A stretch of 64,000 nt of DNA, from assembly GCF_044324875.1 (NCBI RefSeq), contig NZ_CP172186.1; one strand, written 5' to 3'. Both the position numbers and the translations under genes were made by a program. How positions within the stretch are numbered: position 1 is the first letter of the stretch; every line of letters starts with the position of its first letter. This document shows, piece after piece, positions 42,558 through 47,555 of this stretch. The stretch is from Escherichia coli (GTDB lineage: Bacteria; Pseudomonadota; Gammaproteobacteria; Enterobacterales; Enterobacteriaceae). The notes under the pieces were generated by a model. That model ran no database searches. It was not told the origin of the DNA and worked only from the letters and a program-made list of their open reading frames with translations.

Positions 42558-44123
42558 TCAGTGGTAGTAGCCCGGACCACGCAGGTTTTCATGCTCTGAA
42601 GCATATGCCGGATGTTGTTCGCCCTGGCGGGATAATGGAAGCTCCAGGTTCTCCCGATGGTGACGCAGCAGATTGTCGATAAAGCGTCTGTCAGGGGCGT
42701 TATAGTGCAGGGCAACGTAACAGGCCTTTTCCAGCCGTTCCGGGCCGTATTTTTTCTGAAGTGCCAGCAGCCCCAGAACTGCACGATAAGCCAGTTCCGG
42801 ATGGGGTTTTGCCTTCAGCATGGATTCAACCACCCGGCCTGTGGACGGGCCCGTACGTTTTCCCTGCTCGATCAGGCGTTCCGGTGTCCATGTCCCGTGC
42901 TGCCGGTGGCGCTCTGGCATGTGAAGCGGATTGGTTGTGTGTTTATATTCATGTGTGCTGCGCGGATGTTGCGCCACACACTGCCCCTTGTGCCAGAGCT
43001 GTACCACCGACTGCCCCGCCTTCAGTGACAGACGCTGACCGACCAGTTCGTGTGGAACGGAGTACCAGTGACGGGCATATTCAACGTGGTAGTCAGGGCC
43101 AACCTTCACAGCTTTGTATTCCGTGTATTCATAAGGTGCCAGAGGCAGCGGAGAGAGTGCTGGCGCATCCAGTATGCGGAAGCGTTCTGCACGGGTTTGA
43201 TTGCCGTACCCCTTCATTGGCCGGTTATTCATGTCTGTCAGTAACTCCCTAAGGCGCGCATTCAGCGCCCTGAGCGTGTGGAAGGTTTCATTACGGATGC
43301 GGGCAAGAAGCCATCGTTCAACGATGAGGACGCCGTTTTCTGCTTTTGGTTTATCTTTAGGTTTGCGTGGTCGGGCCGGGATGATAACCGTGCCATAGTG
43401 CTCAGCCAGTGCCTGATAACTGTCGTTGATGACAGGCTCATATCGATCGGCCTTTTTCACTGCGCTTCTGAGGTTATCGGGGATGAGCAGCTTCGGTACG
43501 CCGCCCAGGAAGGTCAGGCAACGGCTGTGGGCATTTAACCATGACATCATGTCCTGACCTTCGCACGCTTCAACGTAGGTATAGTTGGACGCCCCCATTA
43601 CGGCCACGAAGATTGCCACGCGGCGTATCTCACCGGTGTCCGGATTAATAACAGGAACCGTAGGACCACAGAAGTCGATAAAAAGCTTTTCGCCGGCACG
43701 ATGCTCCTGGCGCATGGAGAGACGTCGCGTTTTTTTCCACTCCCGGTAGCAACGGCAGAAGTGCGAGTATCCCATCGCTTTGTTACCCGCCTGTGCCTTG
43801 TATTCCATCCACAACAGTTGCCGCGTCACACCTGGTTTTCTCATTTCCGTATCGAAGTACAACATGTCAGGCATTACAAGCTCTGATGCAAAGGTGTCTT
43901 TGGGCGGAAAAATGAGTTTCTCCAGCGTGTCATGGGATATATCAGCAGGTAATGGCCATGACAGAGAAGAGGCTTTGAAGCGGGCAAGAACCTCAAAAAC
44001 GGTTGAGGCGCTGATGTGTAACGTCAGTCCGATACAACGGTTAGTCAGCTTCTTGTCGAACTTGAGCTGAAGGATCTTAAAACAGGTTTCCATAGTGCTC
44101 CTGGATTTTCTCTTTCTGGACAT
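42558..44123 (-). CDS. istA: IS21-family IstA (copy 2)
   Basis: Protein identical to copy 1 IstA. Confidence 0.85.
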   Translation of the reverse strand: MSRKRKSRSTMETCFKILQLKFDKKLTNRCIGLTLHISASTVFEVLARFKASSLSWPLPADISHDTLEKLIFPPKDTFASELVMPDMLYFDTEMRKPGVTRQLLWMEYKAQAGNKAMGYSHFCRCYREWKKTRRLSMRQEHRAGEKLFIDFCGPTVPVINPDTGEIRRVAIFVAVMGASNYTYVEACEGQDMMSWLNAHSRCLTFLGGVPKLLIPDNLRSAVKKADRYEPVINDSYQALAEHYGTVIIPARPRKPKDKPKAENGVLIVERWLLARIRNETFHTLRALNARLRELLTDMNNRPMKGYGNQTRAERFRILDAPALSPLPLAPYEYTEYKAVKVGPDYHVEYARHWYSVPHELVGQRLSLKAGQSVVQLWHKGQCVAQHPRSTHEYKHTTNPLHMPERHRQHGTWTPERLIEQGKRTGPSTGRVVESMLKAKPHPELAYRAVLGLLALQKKYGPERLEKACYVALHYNAPDRRFIDNLLRHHRENLELPLSRQGEQHPAYASEHENLRGPGYYH

Positions 44124-44408
44124 TGACGTCTCCACTGGTTTAAACACGGCAATGGAGACTGTGGTGAAAAGAGTTAATTCCCGGAGTGACTGGCAGGATG
44201 CCAATCAATGATCGGAAGCATGCCAAATCGTGATCGATTGTGATGCCAAACTGTGATCGGAGATGGATGCCAAATCATGATCGATTCGAATGCCAAACTG
44301 CGATCGATTCAGATGCCATTTTGCAGGTAAAAATGGCAATTTTTTTCATGCTGTATTTTTGCCATTTATTTTCTTTGAAATGGTTTTTTTCTTCATATCA
44401 GCAAATAA

Positions 44409-44876
44409 TTATTTCTTATTCTGTTTTCTCCAGGTCCATGGTGGTACCGGATTTTTATCTGCCCATAATCCCCGCTTCAGGGCGCGGGCATCACGCTGGA
44501 GCGGCGGGAGAGTATAGTCATTATTGTAGTCCGGGTACACCCAGGCAGCGCCGTTACGGACCTGCCAGCGATTTGCTTCTGTGCCGTCAGCGGTATAGAC
44601 CCGGCCGAGAATACGGCCATACCTGTCTGTCTGCGCGTATTGCACGGTTACGGGCTTTCCGGCCACCAGGTCCTTCAGCTGAGTGGCTGACCAGCGTCCA
44701 AAGGGCTGTTTCTTTTCCGGTGCATCAATATTAGCCAGACGGACCCTGACAGGCTTTTTGTCCTGTAATATTTCCAGCGTATCACCATCAAGAACGCGGA
44801 TGACGTGCCCCTGAATCTGTGCGGCACAGAGAGAAGCGGAAAAAATAATGGTGAGTGAAAAGATATATTTTATCAT
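44409..44876 (-). CDS. nuc: secreted thermonuclease-type (SNase-like) endonuclease
   Basis: 155 aa, signal peptide MIKYIFSLTIIFSASLCAA, ...RVLDGDTLEI...RVRLANIDAPE... SNase motifs. Confidence 0.8.
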   Translation of the reverse strand: MIKYIFSLTIIFSASLCAAQIQGHVIRVLDGDTLEILQDKKPVRVRLANIDAPEKKQPFGRWSATQLKDLVAGKPVTVQYAQTDRYGRILGRVYTADGTEANRWQVRNGAAWVYPDYNNDYTLPPLQRDARALKRGLWADKNPVPPWTWRKQNKK

Positions 44877-44978: not shown

Positions 44979-45659
44979 ATGAATTCCAGTACGCTGATAT
45001 CCGTGATGATACGGCAACAGATATCCGGTGACGGTATGCAGGAACATATTGATTATCAGATTGAGAAATATCAGTTCAGGGCCAGGAATGAGTCACCGCG
45101 ACTGATGCGCCAGTGGGAAGATGTCATGCGTGAATGCCGTGATACCGGAGCAGGAGCCAGGGAGCGGCTGCGGATTGCCTTACTTAATGTTGATTATGTG
45201 ACCAGTTTTGAACTGCCGTTTCGTCTGCTGTTAACCCGGACACCGCAGATGATTGACAGCGTGCGGCGGGAATGGCAGCTCAGCCAGAAAAAAGTCGTAT
45301 TCAATGAGCGGCAGCGGGGATGTGTATACAGTCTGCAGAATGACTTATCCGGCGTGCCGGATAGCTTCAGTTACAGTCTTGCGACGCGAATACGGCGGGT
45401 GGACAGCTATGGCATGACGACGCGTTGTTTCACTGATATAGCCGGGCAGGTTAAAGCCCCGACAGCACGGCTGAAACTGGCGCTGGAAAGCGGGTTAATT
45501 GTCACCGCGCTGGATGGTCTGTTCTGGCTTGGTATTCAGCGTATTGCCGCAGATGTGCAGCGGCTGCGTCAGTCCGGAATGACAATCATCACCCGGGATG
45601 TTGAGGTCTCAGACTCGCTGACCGGAACCACACGGGTTGTTTCCGGGTACAGACTTTGA
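44979..45659 (+). CDS. hypothetical protein; start uncertain
   Basis: 226-aa ORF. Confidence 0.5.
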   Translation: MNSSTLISVMIRQQISGDGMQEHIDYQIEKYQFRARNESPRLMRQWEDVMRECRDTGAGARERLRIALLNVDYVTSFELPFRLLLTRTPQMIDSVRREWQLSQKKVVFNERQRGCVYSLQNDLSGVPDSFSYSLATRIRRVDSYGMTTRCFTDIAGQVKAPTARLKLALESGLIVTALDGLFWLGIQRIAADVQRLRQSGMTIITRDVEVSDSLTGTTRVVSGYRL

Positions 45660-45860
45660 TTTATGCAACAAAGTATCGCAGCGTCGAATATGAGCTATGG
45701 CCAGATTTTTGTTAATCGTGGTTGTTGCAACATGTAAGGCGAATGACCACACTATTCTGGTACGCTCGTAATCACGCTGAAATTCTGCTTCCTGTCCTGC
45801 CGTGATGAGTTCCGACCAGGACATACGGCGAAGTGTATGTCTGTCAGTAATATCCGTCAT
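45609..45860 (-). CDS. hypothetical small protein
   Basis: 83 aa, start overlaps previous stop. Confidence 0.4.
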   Translation of the reverse strand: MTDITDRHTLRRMSWSELITAGQEAEFQRDYERTRIVWSFALHVATTTINKNLAIAHIRRCDTLLHKSKSVPGNNPCGSGQRV

Positions 45861-46072
45861 GAGCTCTCAGCCTCCTCCTTCGTATTTCCGTCAGAAACAC
45901 AAACGCCCCGCAGAGAAAATTCGCCAACATTCTCCTTTTTAATGGCGCGCAATGCATCGCGGCAGGCCCGTTCGGTATGAAAGGCCTGGCTGTGCACCGC
46001 CAGTGTGGGCTGACGGGCATCACCGGAAGAGACATTAAAGGGCGATGAAAGCCAGAAAATCAGTAGCCACAT
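45857..46072 (-). CDS. hypothetical small exported protein
   Basis: 71 aa, hydrophobic N-terminus MWLLIFWLSSPF. Confidence 0.45.
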   Translation of the reverse strand: MWLLIFWLSSPFNVSSGDARQPTLAVHSQAFHTERACRDALRAIKKENVGEFSLRGVCVSDGNTKEEAESS

Positions 46073-46075
46073 GCG

Positions 46076-46459
46076 TCACACCTCGTCCTTTTTATGCGGG
46101 TATCTGGACAGAATATTGAGCGCCTGTAATGGCGCTTCATGCATTTCACGGATACAACGGGCATCGGTGATATTTTCCCGGTAATGTGTGGTTTCCAGCA
46201 TCATATGATGCATATGGAGCATCCGGGCCAGGGCTGCGCGGAGTTCTTCAATATGTTGTTCATGGGAATGCTGGCGGGGCTGTATCCGGCAGAGAGGGAT
46301 AACCTCCACATCATCCGGGTGCGCGCGAAGCCACGCGTCAGTGACTGCAATGTCGTCAGTGTAAAACCATGTGCCGGATGTCCCGTTGGCCAGAAAACGC
46401 ATTTTCCAGGCTTCTGGGGTGGCGGTTGTGTTGTTATCTTTCATGGTGCCACCACTCAT
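46076..46459 (-). CDS. hypothetical protein
   Basis: 127 aa. Confidence 0.5.
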   Translation of the reverse strand: MSGGTMKDNNTTATPEAWKMRFLANGTSGTWFYTDDIAVTDAWLRAHPDDVEVIPLCRIQPRQHSHEQHIEELRAALARMLHMHHMMLETTHYRENITDARCIREMHEAPLQALNILSRYPHKKDEV

Positions 46460-46647
46460 TCAACAGGCTTAATGCTGTCCAGGCGCAGTCTGCTCAGACT
46501 GTCGTGGCTGCCACAGCGGCGTCCAGTGCTTTTGCTGTAGCACTCCTGCCCCCTGATACACCATGCCGTTGGCGTTTCGTAGAGGCTGACACGTCGGGTT
46601 TTATCTTTAATGATGAGAAGCCCGGTGTGAGTTTTTGTCTTTTTCAT
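46456..46647 (-). CDS. hypothetical small protein (first ORF of a four-ORF overlapping minus-strand string)
   Basis: 63 aa; stop overlaps next start. Confidence 0.35.
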   Translation of the reverse strand: MKKTKTHTGLLIIKDKTRRVSLYETPTAWCIRGQECYSKSTGRRCGSHDSLSRLRLDSIKPVE

Positions 46648-46991
46648 CGGTGGGGTACAAACGCAGAAATTTTGTTGTCATTACATCATCAGTTTTAGCC
46701 TGCAGAGACGCTGAAAAATCAGCGTTTTCAGACCCTGTTCAGGTTAGTGAATATTCTTGCCTGGCCTTTCGGCAATATCAATCCCCTGATGTGTGCACAC
46801 GTAGTCACTTTCCGGCTTTATTTCTGTCCCTGACACAAAATACGTGGTGGCATGAAAAGGATTGTGGCGGACAGGAAAACGATTAGAATAGCGGCGGGCG
46901 CTTGAGGCTGTATGCCGAAAGCGTTTTGTGGACGGCATGTAGCAGAAAGCCCCAGGCGATTTTTTTATCAATCAACCCAGGGCCCACTGTA

Positions 46992-47195
46992 ATGCCTAGA
47001 CAACATTATAGTAGCCCGATGACGGCCGAAAGGCAATGGAGGGGCTGCGATGCCACAACGAACGTTTTTAATGATGTTAATCGTCGTCTGTGTGACGATA
47101 CTGTGTTTTGTCTGGATGGTGAGGGATTCGCTTTGCGGATTTCGTATCGAGCAGGGAAATACGGTGCTTGTGGCAACGTTAGCCTACGAAGTTAA
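46992..47195 (+). CDS. pndC: possible PndC (mok-like overlapping reading frame); start uncertain
   Basis: Alternate frame overlapping almost all of pndA, as in hok/mok-type loci. Confidence 0.35.
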   Translation: MPRQHYSSPMTAERQWRGCDATTNVFNDVNRRLCDDTVFCLDGEGFALRISYRAGKYGACGNVSLRS

Positions 47196-47202
47196 ACGTT
47201 AA
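47050..47202 (+). CDS. pndA: Hok/Gef-family post-segregational killing toxin PndA
   Basis: 50 aa MPQRTFLMMLIVVCVTILCFVWMVRDSLCGFRIEQGNTVLVATLAYEVKR; below ORF-track cutoff, read directly. Confidence 0.8.
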   Translation: MPQRTFLMMLIVVCVTILCFVWMVRDSLCGFRIEQGNTVLVATLAYEVKR

Positions 47203-47339: not shown

Positions 47340-47555
47340 TCAATTATGACAGTCGCTCTCATTTAGTTGTCTCTGGTTAGATGTATTATTATATATTTTC
47401 GGGGTAATTCGATAAAAGTTATCCACTTCAGCACCAGACTGAATGATATATGCAATAAGATCTAAACGATGAATCTCGTATCGTGTACGTAACTCCATTA
47501 TTTCACGCCATGGAGTACCATGTCGTGCTGGAAAATTGCTGCGGGATTCAGACAT
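47340..47555 (-). CDS. hypothetical small protein in AT-rich spacer
   Basis: 71-aa ORF only. Confidence 0.25.
   Translation of the reverse strand: MSESRSNFPARHGTPWREIMELRTRYEIHRLDLIAYIIQSGAEVDNFYRITPKIYNNTSNQRQLNESDCHN

What the first reader, a model, noticed from the sequence alone, without database searches (positions are those of the whole stretch)
45609..46647. String of four overlapping small minus-strand ORFs between nuc and pnd, including an exported 71-aa protein
Four ORFs (63, 127, 71 and 83 aa) are linked by overlapping stop/start codons, which argues they are real and co-translated. One has a hydrophobic signal-like N-terminus. None matches anything I recognise. The location inside the transfer region next to the killer locus and entry exclusion suggests a surface-exclusion or maintenance role.
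Basis: inference. Interest (0 to 1): 0.4.

Follow-up and report, generated by a model that had tools for sequence, protein, structure and literature searches.

The report
Conserved phage-derived small-gene operon, ANR-like
The four small genes are real and conserved, but they are a mobile cassette of phage-type genes of unknown function, found mostly on E. coli chromosomes, whose last gene resembles a family of small virulence-regulator inhibitors; nothing ties it to plasmid transfer or exclusion.

Summary
All four ORFs exist at the stated coordinates and are genuine genes. A second version of the string at about 72% DNA identity keeps all four in the same order. dN/dS is 0.07-0.14 for the 63-, 122- and 71-aa genes. 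All 18 sampled copies are intact.

- The 127-aa ORF really starts at MKDNN (122 aa).
- Only the 71/83 junction is a true stop/start overlap.
- 'nuc' here is a thermonuclease, not the R64 Nuc.

The string is not a transfer-region function. R64 and pESBL lack it. It occurs in 992 of 5,426 complete E. coli genomes, with 801 chromosomal places (for example beside iha in ST131) against 259 on plasmids.

The 63- and 71-aa proteins belong to PHROG families 1226 and 3766, found in early accessory regions of temperate phages. The C-terminal 50 residues of the 122-aa protein form a widespread, uncharacterised phage-linked helical domain. The 83-aa ORF, which PGAP does not call on plasmids, is a divergent relative of the ANR (AraC negative regulator) family.

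AlphaFold2 models the hydrophobic start of the 71-aa protein as a core beta-strand, not a signal peptide.

Best reading: a phage-derived accessory operon of small cytoplasmic proteins ending in an ANR-like regulator. The function is inferred, not shown.

The parts
46456..46647 (-). Gene 1 of the string, 63 aa, basic (pI 9.95). Member of PHROG 1226 (function unknown). Annotated as hypothetical protein WP_000751583.
   Evidence: ORF. phrog_1226 E 7.1e-17, full length. 73% aa identity in L004 with dN/dS 0.11. tblastn finds 100 phage records and 294 IMG/VR matches. pI.
46076..46444 (-). Gene 2, 122 aa from the conserved MKDNN start; the longest ORF, 127 aa, starts at 46459. Predicted N-terminal small alpha/beta domain plus a C-terminal helical hairpin. 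The hairpin carries a widespread uncharacterised motif, L..AL.RM..MH......DA.C.RE..EAP.QA. Annotated as WP_001302696.
   Evidence: start codon. dN/dS 0.12-0.14. The full-length family is essentially limited to E. coli. The C-terminal domain is found in 72 representative proteins. AF2 pLDDT 78.7. No Pfam, NCBIfam or PDB match.
45857..46072 (-). Gene 3, 71 aa, member of PHROG 3766. Hydrophobic N-terminus MWLLIFW and two conserved Cys (C37, C58). Annotated as WP_000266543.
   Evidence: phrog_3766 E 2.5e-11. 85% aa identity in L004 with dN/dS 0.07-0.09. 47 IMG/VR loci. AF2 model: strands 2-10, 23-31 and 53-60, helix 34-47.
45609..45860 (-). Gene 4, 83 aa, 9.5 kDa. Divergent ANR-family-like small protein with a conserved core at residues ~10-62 and an unconstrained tail. 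Its start overlaps the stop of gene 3 (ATGA). Its last 51 nt overlap the 3' end of the convergent HTH_39/ECs1377-family gene. PGAP does not annotate it on plasmids, but annotates a 90-aa form on chromosomes.
   Evidence: NF033650 at 16.2 bits, E 0.007. All 8 family members hit NF033650, best E 2.1e-7. Relative P0173 scores 41.1 bits, above the 32-bit cutoff. hhalign against phage ANRs: E 2.6e-5. Chromosomal annotation. Tail variants.
46744..46789 (-). 3' remnant of an 80-aa gene that precedes the string in most copies. A 266-bp deletion in this plasmid lineage removed its start and upstream region.
   Evidence: Alignment of the window with L002. The 80-aa gene is present in L002, L009, L142, L147-L152 and L157-L160. 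It is homologous to the R64 83-aa ORF beside pnd.
46753..46781 (-). Promoter-like site (TTGATA-17-AAGAAT) inside the remnant, about 105 nt upstream of gene 1. A candidate only.
   Evidence: Consensus scan, 9 of 12 matches. The number of such sites equals the shuffle expectation, so this is not evidence of function.

Best explanation
The region is a conserved, horizontally mobile accessory operon. Elsewhere it has five genes; here the first is truncated, leaving four. It encodes small, probably cytoplasmic proteins whose relatives sit in the early accessory regions of temperate phages.

It is cargo in the variable trbA-excA slot of IncI-complex plasmids. It is not part of conjugation, entry exclusion or the pnd killer system.

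Shown:
- All four ORFs are under purifying selection and stay together in two diverged versions.
- Most copies are chromosomal.
- Genes 1 and 3 are members of PHROG families 1226 and 3766.
- Gene 4 is homologous to the ANR (AraC negative regulator) family.

Inferred mechanism:
- The genes are transcribed as one unit. Gene 4 is translationally coupled to gene 3.
- The ANR-like product acts by protein-protein contact on a host or element transcription factor, either an AraC/XylS-type activator or H-NS. This would tune expression of horizontally acquired genes.
- The other three small proteins would be partners or independent host-modulating factors.
For: Coding and operon structure:
- Synteny and aa identities of 73/69/85/54% in the 72%-DNA version.
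- dN/dS of 0.07-0.14, with a third-position excess for gene 4.
- 18 of 18 copies intact.
- Intergenic gaps of 11, 3 and -4 nt.
- The antisense ORFs are not conserved.

Mobility:
- 593 plasmid records carry it.
- It is absent from R64 and pESBL.
- It is present in 992 of 5,426 complete E. coli genomes, with 801 chromosomal places.
- It lies beside iha in the iha-sat island of ST131, and near a TonB-dependent receptor (Plug/TonB_dep_Rec domains), an AraC-family gene and a SPATE gene in other chromosomes.

Phage ancestry:
- PHROG hits.
- Phage records and IMG/VR loci.
- Location in nin-type and Mu early regions.

ANR link:
-.
- Bona fide ANR genes (49-73 bits) lie within 450 nt of gene 1 or gene 3 homologs in six phage loci.
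- A variant of gene 4 with a replaced tail keeps the core intact.

ANR mechanism: taken from PMC4983702 and PMC5570504 (abstracts and text).

Location of the 71-aa protein: AF2 model and hydropathy.
Against: - No experiment bears on function, transcription or translation.
- The window's gene 4 scores only 16.2 bits against NF033650 (cutoff 32). It lacks four of the eight signature residues published for ANRs: A10->G, A22->T, W43->L, R47->H.
- The hhalign probability is only 74.8%.
- The bona fide ANR closest to gene 4 (P0173) is not preceded by genes 1-3.
- No AraC-family gene accompanies the string on plasmids or in ST131.
- Only 6 of 127 phage loci pair an ANR with genes 1 or 3, and these come from about three independent lineages.
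- Genes 1-3 gave no informative structural or family match.
- The promoter is unknown, and the usual upstream region is deleted in this plasmid.
Confidence: 0.55

Rival explanations
1. Phage-type host-takeover, anti-defence or superinfection module. The four small proteins would inhibit host defence or DNA-metabolism proteins, or exclude phages, as many early phage 'moron' genes do. The ANR-like similarity would be incidental to function.
For: Homologs of genes 1 and 3, and of the C-terminal domain of gene 2, lie in early accessory regions of temperate phages. They sit next to replication genes, VRR-NUC-like genes, methylases and the Mu semi-essential region. The neighbouring thermonuclease matches a PADLOC candidate-defence model.
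Against: None of the four proteins hits PADLOC. None resembles a known anti-defence fold. The string is kept at 95-97% identity outside prophages, in chromosomal islands.
Confidence: 0.2
2. One reading: a surface-exclusion or plasmid-maintenance function of the transfer region, involving an exported 71-aa protein.
For: The string lies between pnd and the nuclease gene and close to excA and traY. The N-terminus of the 71-aa protein is hydrophobic, and two Cys are conserved.
Against: R64 and pESBL lack the string. 76% of copies (801 of 1,060 places) are chromosomal, without tra, exc or pnd genes nearby. The first 17 residues carry no charged n-region. The Kyte-Doolittle mean over 19 residues is 0.81. 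AF2 makes residues 2-10 a core beta-strand with pLDDT 83. The motif MW.LI.W is conserved in sequence down to 36% identity, though one of the two search patterns selected for it.
Confidence: 0.07
3. Toxin-antitoxin or addiction cassette made of small overlapping genes.
For: The genes are small and tightly packed, sit on mobile DNA and lie next to a type I toxin locus.
Against: No match to any toxin or antitoxin family in Pfam, NCBIfam or PADLOC. The string has four or five genes rather than two. The pnd/sok unit is complete without it.
Confidence: 0.05
4. Decaying hitch-hiker DNA whose ORFs are not functional.
For: The upstream gene is truncated here. PGAP omits gene 4 on plasmids. The tail of gene 4 varies by frameshift.
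Against: dN/dS is 0.07-0.14 with synonymous sites saturated. All four ORFs are intact in 18 of 18 copies spanning 54-100% aa identity.
Confidence: 0.03

Closest known systems
ANR (AraC negative regulator) family: Aar of EAEC, Cnr of ETEC, Rnr of Citrobacter rodentium (NCBIfam NF033650)
   Same: Gene 4 is under 10 kDa. It aligns without internal gaps over a 45-residue core and shares the signature positions E14, W26, A29 and C51, with A22 present in its close relatives. All family members hit NF033650, and one relative passes the cutoff. Like ANRs, it is carried on mobile virulence-associated DNA.
   Different: The window protein is below the family cutoff (16.2 against 32 bits). It has L in place of the second signature Trp and H in place of the signature Arg. 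It is the last gene of a multigene string rather than a lone gene. No cognate AraC-type activator lies nearby on the plasmid. Binding activity is untested.
PHROG 1226 and PHROG 3766: small early-region ORFs of temperate enterobacterial phages, function unknown
   Same: Genes 1 and 3 match over their full length. Their phage homologs sit in nin-type accessory regions, or between a DNA polymerase A gene and a VRR-NUC-like gene.
   Different: Here they lie outside any prophage, fixed in a four/five-gene string together with an E. coli-restricted 122-aa gene. No phage locus examined has all four genes.
Hha/YmoA-type H-NS modulators carried in the same trbA-excA slot of other IncI plasmids (pESBL)
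   Same: A small regulator-like cargo gene in the same plasmid position. ANRs are reported to act on H-NS as well (PMC5570504).
   Different: There is no sequence relationship. This is an analogy of position and possible role only.
PerC/Pch small activators (Pfam PF06069)
   Same: A phage ANR found next to gene 1 homologs touches PF06069 exactly at its cutoff. A 51%-identical relative of gene 2 lies in a locus with three PerC genes.
   Different: The gene 4 family itself gives no PerC hit at E <= 1.

Membership tests
ANR family (NF033650) | Score at or above the curated NCBIfam cutoff (32 bits) | tested here: not met
   The window protein scores 16.2 bits, E 0.007. Relatives: P0073 30.7, the L004 homolog 28.3, P0173 41.1.
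ANR family (NF033650) | Homology to bona fide ANRs by profile comparison | tested here: met
   Eight of 8 family members hit NF033650, best E 2.1e-7. The A4 profile finds the NCBI-named ANR P0173 at E 2.6e-19. hhalign of A4 against phage ANRs gives E 2.6e-5 and probability 74.8% over 45 columns.
ANR family (NF033650) | Published signature residues A10, E14, A22, W26, A29, W43, R47, C51 (PMC4983702) | tested here: inconclusive
   The window copy keeps E, W26, A29 and C51. It has G, T, L and H at the other four positions. Close relatives keep A22, and P0173 keeps R47.
ANR family (NF033650) | Size below 10 kDa | tested here: met
   9.51 kDa.
ANR family (NF033650) | Three predicted alpha-helices | not tested
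ANR family (NF033650) | Binds the central region of AraC/XylS activators and/or H-NS and represses their regulon | not testable with these tools
   Needs two-hybrid or pull-down assays, or complementation of an aar mutant.
PHROG 1226 (gene 1) | Full-length match to the family profile | tested here: met
   E 7.1e-17, residues 1-63 on profile positions 1-63 of 67.
PHROG 3766 (gene 3) | Full-length match to the family profile | tested here: met
   E 2.5e-11, residues 1-65 on profile positions 2-64 of 66.
Sec-exported protein (claim for the 71-aa ORF) | Positively charged n-region before the hydrophobic core | tested here: not met
   No K, R, D or E in the first 17 residues. The same holds in 25 distinct phage homologs.
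Sec-exported protein (claim for the 71-aa ORF) | N-terminal segment separate from the folded domain | tested here: not met
   AF2 makes residues 2-10 strand 1 of a beta-beta-alpha-beta fold, with block pLDDT 83 and overall pLDDT 72. This is a prediction only; SignalP was not available.
IncI entry exclusion / transfer genes | Present in the reference IncI1 transfer systems and homologous to ExcA or Tra proteins | tested here: not met
   Absent from R64 and pESBL. No Pfam hit for any of the four proteins. Most copies are chromosomal.
pnd (Hok/Sok-type) killer locus | Part of the hok/sok unit | tested here: not met
   The Rfam sok hit (46896-47052) and the Hok/Gef ORF (47050-47202) lie outside the string. 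R64 has pnd without the string. ST131 has the string without pnd.

The most novel reading that the evidence does not exclude
The four (originally five) genes form one functional regulatory module. In it, a divergent ANR-like anti-activator, translationally coupled to a phage-type partner, acts with the other small proteins on H-NS or on AraC-type regulators. This would control expression of the DNA that carries it: iha/sat-type virulence islands in ExPEC lineages such as ST131, and IncI/K/B/O plasmids. If so, it would be a widespread, unrecognised regulator of virulence or plasmid cost in about one fifth of sequenced E. coli.
Probability: 0.15. Interest if true: 0.55.

Novelty: new member of a known kind. 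Interest (0 to 1): 0.3.

Why it matters
The string is carried by about 18% of complete E. coli genomes, including the iha-sat island of ST131 and several hundred resistance plasmids. Yet it is annotated only as 'hypothetical protein', or under spurious names such as 'neurotensin receptor R8' and 'FlgM'. Recognising its last gene as ANR-like gives a concrete, cheap test: binding to H-NS or AraC-type regulators, and complementation of an aar mutant. It also corrects the idea that the genes belong to the conjugation or exclusion machinery. If the ANR-like activity is real, the string would be a candidate modulator of virulence-island or plasmid gene expression. If not, it remains an ordinary set of conserved phage-derived ORFs of unknown function.

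Tried and rejected
- Pfam, NCBIfam and PADLOC scans of the four proteins gave nothing except the weak ANR hit.
- Pfam, NCBIfam and PHROG scans of 35 proteins sharing the C-terminal domain of gene 2 found no named family.
- Sequence searches of the PDB with profiles of all four families found nothing.
- The R64 83-aa ORF beside pnd was tested as a possible homolog of gene 4. It is unrelated and instead matches the truncated 80-aa upstream gene.
- Synteny test: the bona fide ANR P0173 is not preceded by genes 1-3. It sits alone inside an F-like tra cluster.
- No homolog of gene 2 turned up in any of the 127 phage loci.
- A single-sequence IMG/VR scan for gene 3 found nothing; the scan with an alignment succeeded.
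- The promoter and terminator scan gave counts equal to the shuffled expectation.
- Literature searches for the genes, for 'neurotensin receptor R8' and for guessed CFT073 locus tags found no functional work.
- The alternative ORFs (alt 63 aa at 45844-46035, and plus-strand ORFs of 109 and 133 aa) are not conserved in the diverged version.
Full report
**What is there**

The minus strand of window 45609-46647 carries four consecutive ORFs of 63, 127, 71 and 83 aa, at exactly the coordinates given. The window is an IncI-complex plasmid. Its best match is the IncK2/Z plasmid pLH50-c-A, at 100% identity.

RefSeq annotates three of the ORFs as 'hypothetical protein': 63 aa, 122 aa and 71 aa. It does not call the 83-aa ORF on plasmids. 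There, the last 51 nt of that ORF overlap the 3' end of a convergent HTH_39/ECs1377-family gene.

It is not the phospholipase-D-type gene that occupies the nuc position in R64.

**Are the ORFs real genes?**

Yes.

- A second version of the string, about 72% identical in DNA, occurs on other IncK2/Z plasmids (L004, L006). It keeps all four ORFs in the same order, with 73%, 69%, 85% and 54% amino-acid identity.
- Between the two versions, synonymous sites are saturated. dN/dS is 0.11 for the 63-aa gene, 0.12-0.14 for the 122-aa gene and 0.07-0.09 for the 71-aa gene. The 83-aa gene is more diverged (dN about 0.6) but still shows a third-position excess of 33/34/60.
- All four ORFs are free of stops in all 18 plasmid and chromosomal copies sampled.
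- The overlapping alternative-frame and antisense ORFs are not conserved.

Three details need correcting.

- The MSGGT extension of the 127-aa ORF is not conserved. The real start is MKDNN, giving 122 aa, 11 nt after the preceding stop.
- The 122/71 junction is a 3-nt gap.
- Only the 71/83 junction (ATGA) is a true overlap, and in the diverged version it becomes a 27-nt gap.

**Where else does it occur?**

- The trbA-excA interval is a variable cargo slot. R64 and pESBL have other genes there and lack this string.
- The thermonuclease/HTH pair is an independent module. It lies on the other side of the string in pDETEC45.
- The string occurs on 593 PLSDB plasmids.
- It is more common on chromosomes. 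It is present in 992 of 5,426 complete E. coli genomes, with 801 chromosomal places at 95-97% identity against 259 on plasmids.
- In ST131 it lies next to iha in the iha-sat island, amid IS debris and without pnd, excA or tra genes.
- In other chromosomal copies it follows a TonB-dependent receptor gene (Plug/TonB_dep_Rec domains, ~695 aa), about 4 kb from a YdeO-like AraC-family gene and a SPATE gene.
- On chromosomes, PGAP does annotate the fourth gene, as a 90-aa form whose stop/start overlap with the 71-aa gene is the same.
- Most copies have a fifth, 80-aa gene upstream. In this window a 266-bp deletion has removed its 5' two-thirds and upstream region, leaving the remnant at 46744-46789. 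That gene is the homolog of the R64 83-aa ORF beside pnd.

**What are the proteins?**

- *Gene 1 (63 aa, pI 9.95).* It is a full-length member of PHROG 1226. The same module also forms part of longer phage proteins. It is found in 100 phage records, including Stx2a phages, mEp460 and Klebsiella phages, and in 294 IMG/VR stretches.
- *Gene 3 (71 aa).* It is a member of PHROG 3766, with 47 IMG/VR loci. In Klebsiella phages it is an unannotated ORF between genes annotated EaD and Eaa, in the region between the replication genes and ninE/ninG/Q.
- *Gene 2 (122 aa).* Its full-length family is essentially limited to E. coli. An exhaustive profile search shows that its C-terminal ~50 residues form a widespread domain at the C-terminus of many small proteins. 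One of these lies in the early region of a Mu-like prophage. No Pfam, NCBIfam or named PHROG family covers the domain. AlphaFold2 (pLDDT 78.7) predicts a small beta-beta-alpha-beta N-domain plus a helical hairpin. Structure searches gave only generic matches.
- *Gene 4 (83 aa, 9.5 kDa).* This is the only gene with a link to a studied family, so it is treated separately below.

**The ANR link for gene 4**

- It gives a weak hit to NCBIfam NF033650, 'ANR family transcriptional regulator': 16.2 bits, E 0.007, against a cutoff of 32 bits.
- All eight diverse members of its family hit the same model, with best E 2.1e-7.
- The family profile retrieves P0173 at E 2.6e-19. P0173 is 41% identical, is named ANR by NCBI and scores 41.1 bits.
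- A profile-profile comparison with independent phage ANRs gives E 2.6e-5 and probability 74.8% over an ungapped 45-residue core.
- Against the signature published for ANRs (PMC4983702), the window copy keeps E14, W26, A29 and C51. It has G, T, L and H at A10, A22, W43 and R47. Close relatives keep A22.
- The tail beyond about residue 62 is unconstrained. It differs by frameshift between plasmid and chromosomal copies, and it is replaced outright in plasmids where a sulfatase-family gene lies downstream of gene 4.

I therefore treat gene 4 as a divergent homolog of ANRs, not as a certified member.

The public names for this family, 'neurotensin receptor R8' and 'flagellar biosynthesis protein FlgM', have no support.

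**Association in phages**

Bona fide ANR genes (49-73 bits) lie within 450 nt of gene 1 or gene 3 homologs in six IMG/VR loci. Several of these loci also carry a DNA polymerase A gene and a VRR-NUC-like gene nearby.

- In L017 the order is gene-1-like, a 65-aa ORF, ANR, gene-3-like, with the ANR stop abutting the gene-3 start.
- In L062, L064, L065 and L099 the ANR lies immediately upstream of the gene-1 homolog.
- In L015 the ANR lies 444 nt downstream of the gene-3 homolog.

This is 6 of 127 loci, from about three independent lineages. I did not compare this frequency with a random-gene baseline. No phage locus has all four genes. The closest bona fide ANR, P0173, sits alone in an F-like tra cluster.

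**The 'exported' 71-aa protein**

- Residues 2-12 are hydrophobic, but the first 17 residues carry no charged residue.
- The Kyte-Doolittle mean over 19 residues is 0.81, too low for a membrane helix.
- MW.LI.W is conserved in sequence down to 36% identity. This is partly ascertainment, because one of the two search patterns was this motif.
- AlphaFold2 (pLDDT 72) makes residues 2-10 the first strand of a beta-beta-alpha-beta fold, with a block pLDDT of 83.

Export is therefore not supported, but it is not excluded without SignalP or fusion experiments.

**Mechanism**

Shown:
- The string is a conserved, co-oriented and tightly packed set of protein-coding genes.
- It is mobile between chromosomal islands and plasmids.
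- It has phage-type relatives and an ANR-like last gene.

Inferred:
- The genes form one operon, and gene 4 is translationally coupled to gene 3.
- The ANR-like product acts, as Aar does, by binding an AraC/XylS-type activator or H-NS (PMC4983702, PMC5570504).
- The other three proteins are partners or separate host-modulating factors.

A positional analogy: pESBL carries an Hha/YmoA-type gene in the same plasmid slot.

My confidence in the whole statement is 0.55. I am confident about the 'real, mobile, phage-derived, not a transfer function' part, and only modestly confident about ANR-type activity.

The rivals, in order, are:
- a phage-type anti-defence or host-takeover module (0.2);
- a toxin-antitoxin cassette (0.05);
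- non-functional DNA (0.03).

**Novelty and interest**

The genes are already in the databases as hypothetical proteins, and two belong to PHROG families. I found no paper that studies them. The ANR-like assignment of the unannotated fourth gene and the chromosomal distribution are useful but not surprising. I class the finding as a new member of a known kind, with interest 0.3.

Noticed in passing
window 42558-44204 (-); homology break at 44326: A 548-aa IS21-type transposase ORF (rve plus Mu-transpos_C_2 domains) sits where related plasmids carry dqlB and a 58-aa gene. Identity with pLH50-c-A begins only at window 44326, just beyond the 3' end of the thermonuclease gene.
   Followed up: partly
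window ~46789/46790; remnant ORF 46744-46971 (-): A 266-bp deletion relative to the common IncI1 version truncates an 80-aa gene. That gene precedes the string in most plasmid and chromosomal copies and is homologous to the R64 83-aa ORF beside pnd. The deletion may also have removed the usual promoter region.
   Followed up: partly
window 44409-44876 (-) and 44979-45659 (+): The thermonuclease (SNase) gene matches the PADLOC candidate-defence model PDLC01096 'SNc+LTD' (E 1.3e-11). It is paired divergently with an ECs1377-family HTH_39 gene (NF052300, 300 bits). The pair lies on the other side of the string in pDETEC45.
   Followed up: no
window 46896-47052 (+) and 47050-47202 (+): Rfam sok (RF01794, 125.6 bits) and the 50-aa Hok/Gef ORF. 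The pnd killer locus appears intact and lies immediately upstream of the deleted region.
   Followed up: no
window 47340-47555 (-): A 71-aa ORF between pnd and excA with no family match. In other IncI plasmids this interval holds a 528-aa TnsA-like gene.
   Followed up: no
database names of homologs of window 45609-45860: Homologs of the fourth gene are named 'neurotensin receptor R8' or 'flagellar biosynthesis protein FlgM' in NCBI and UniRef records, and this was repeated in one paper on an ST58 island (PMC7371111). No evidence supports these names.
   Followed up: yes
L064 2701-2928; L145/L146: A bona fide phage ANR also touches Pfam PerC (PF06069) exactly at its cutoff (22.6 bits), which hints that ANR and PerC/Pch small regulators may be related. 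A 51%-identical relative of the 122-aa gene lies in a locus with three PerC genes, a Q antiterminator gene, ProQ and SSB, beside a type III secretion cluster.
   Followed up: partly
L157-L160 5457-7001 (-): In some IncI-type plasmids a 475-514-aa sulfatase-family (PF00884) gene lies immediately downstream of the fourth gene. In those plasmids the tail of the fourth gene differs while its ANR-like core is kept. The identity of this gene (possibly a phosphoethanolamine-transferase-like gene) was not checked.
   Followed up: no
L153/L154 5001-5234: An ANR-family gene (P0173, 41 bits) stands alone on the opposite strand inside an F-like transfer cluster (TraG_N, TraU, TraC_F_IV). ANR-like genes thus recur as cargo in unrelated conjugative elements.
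   Followed up: no
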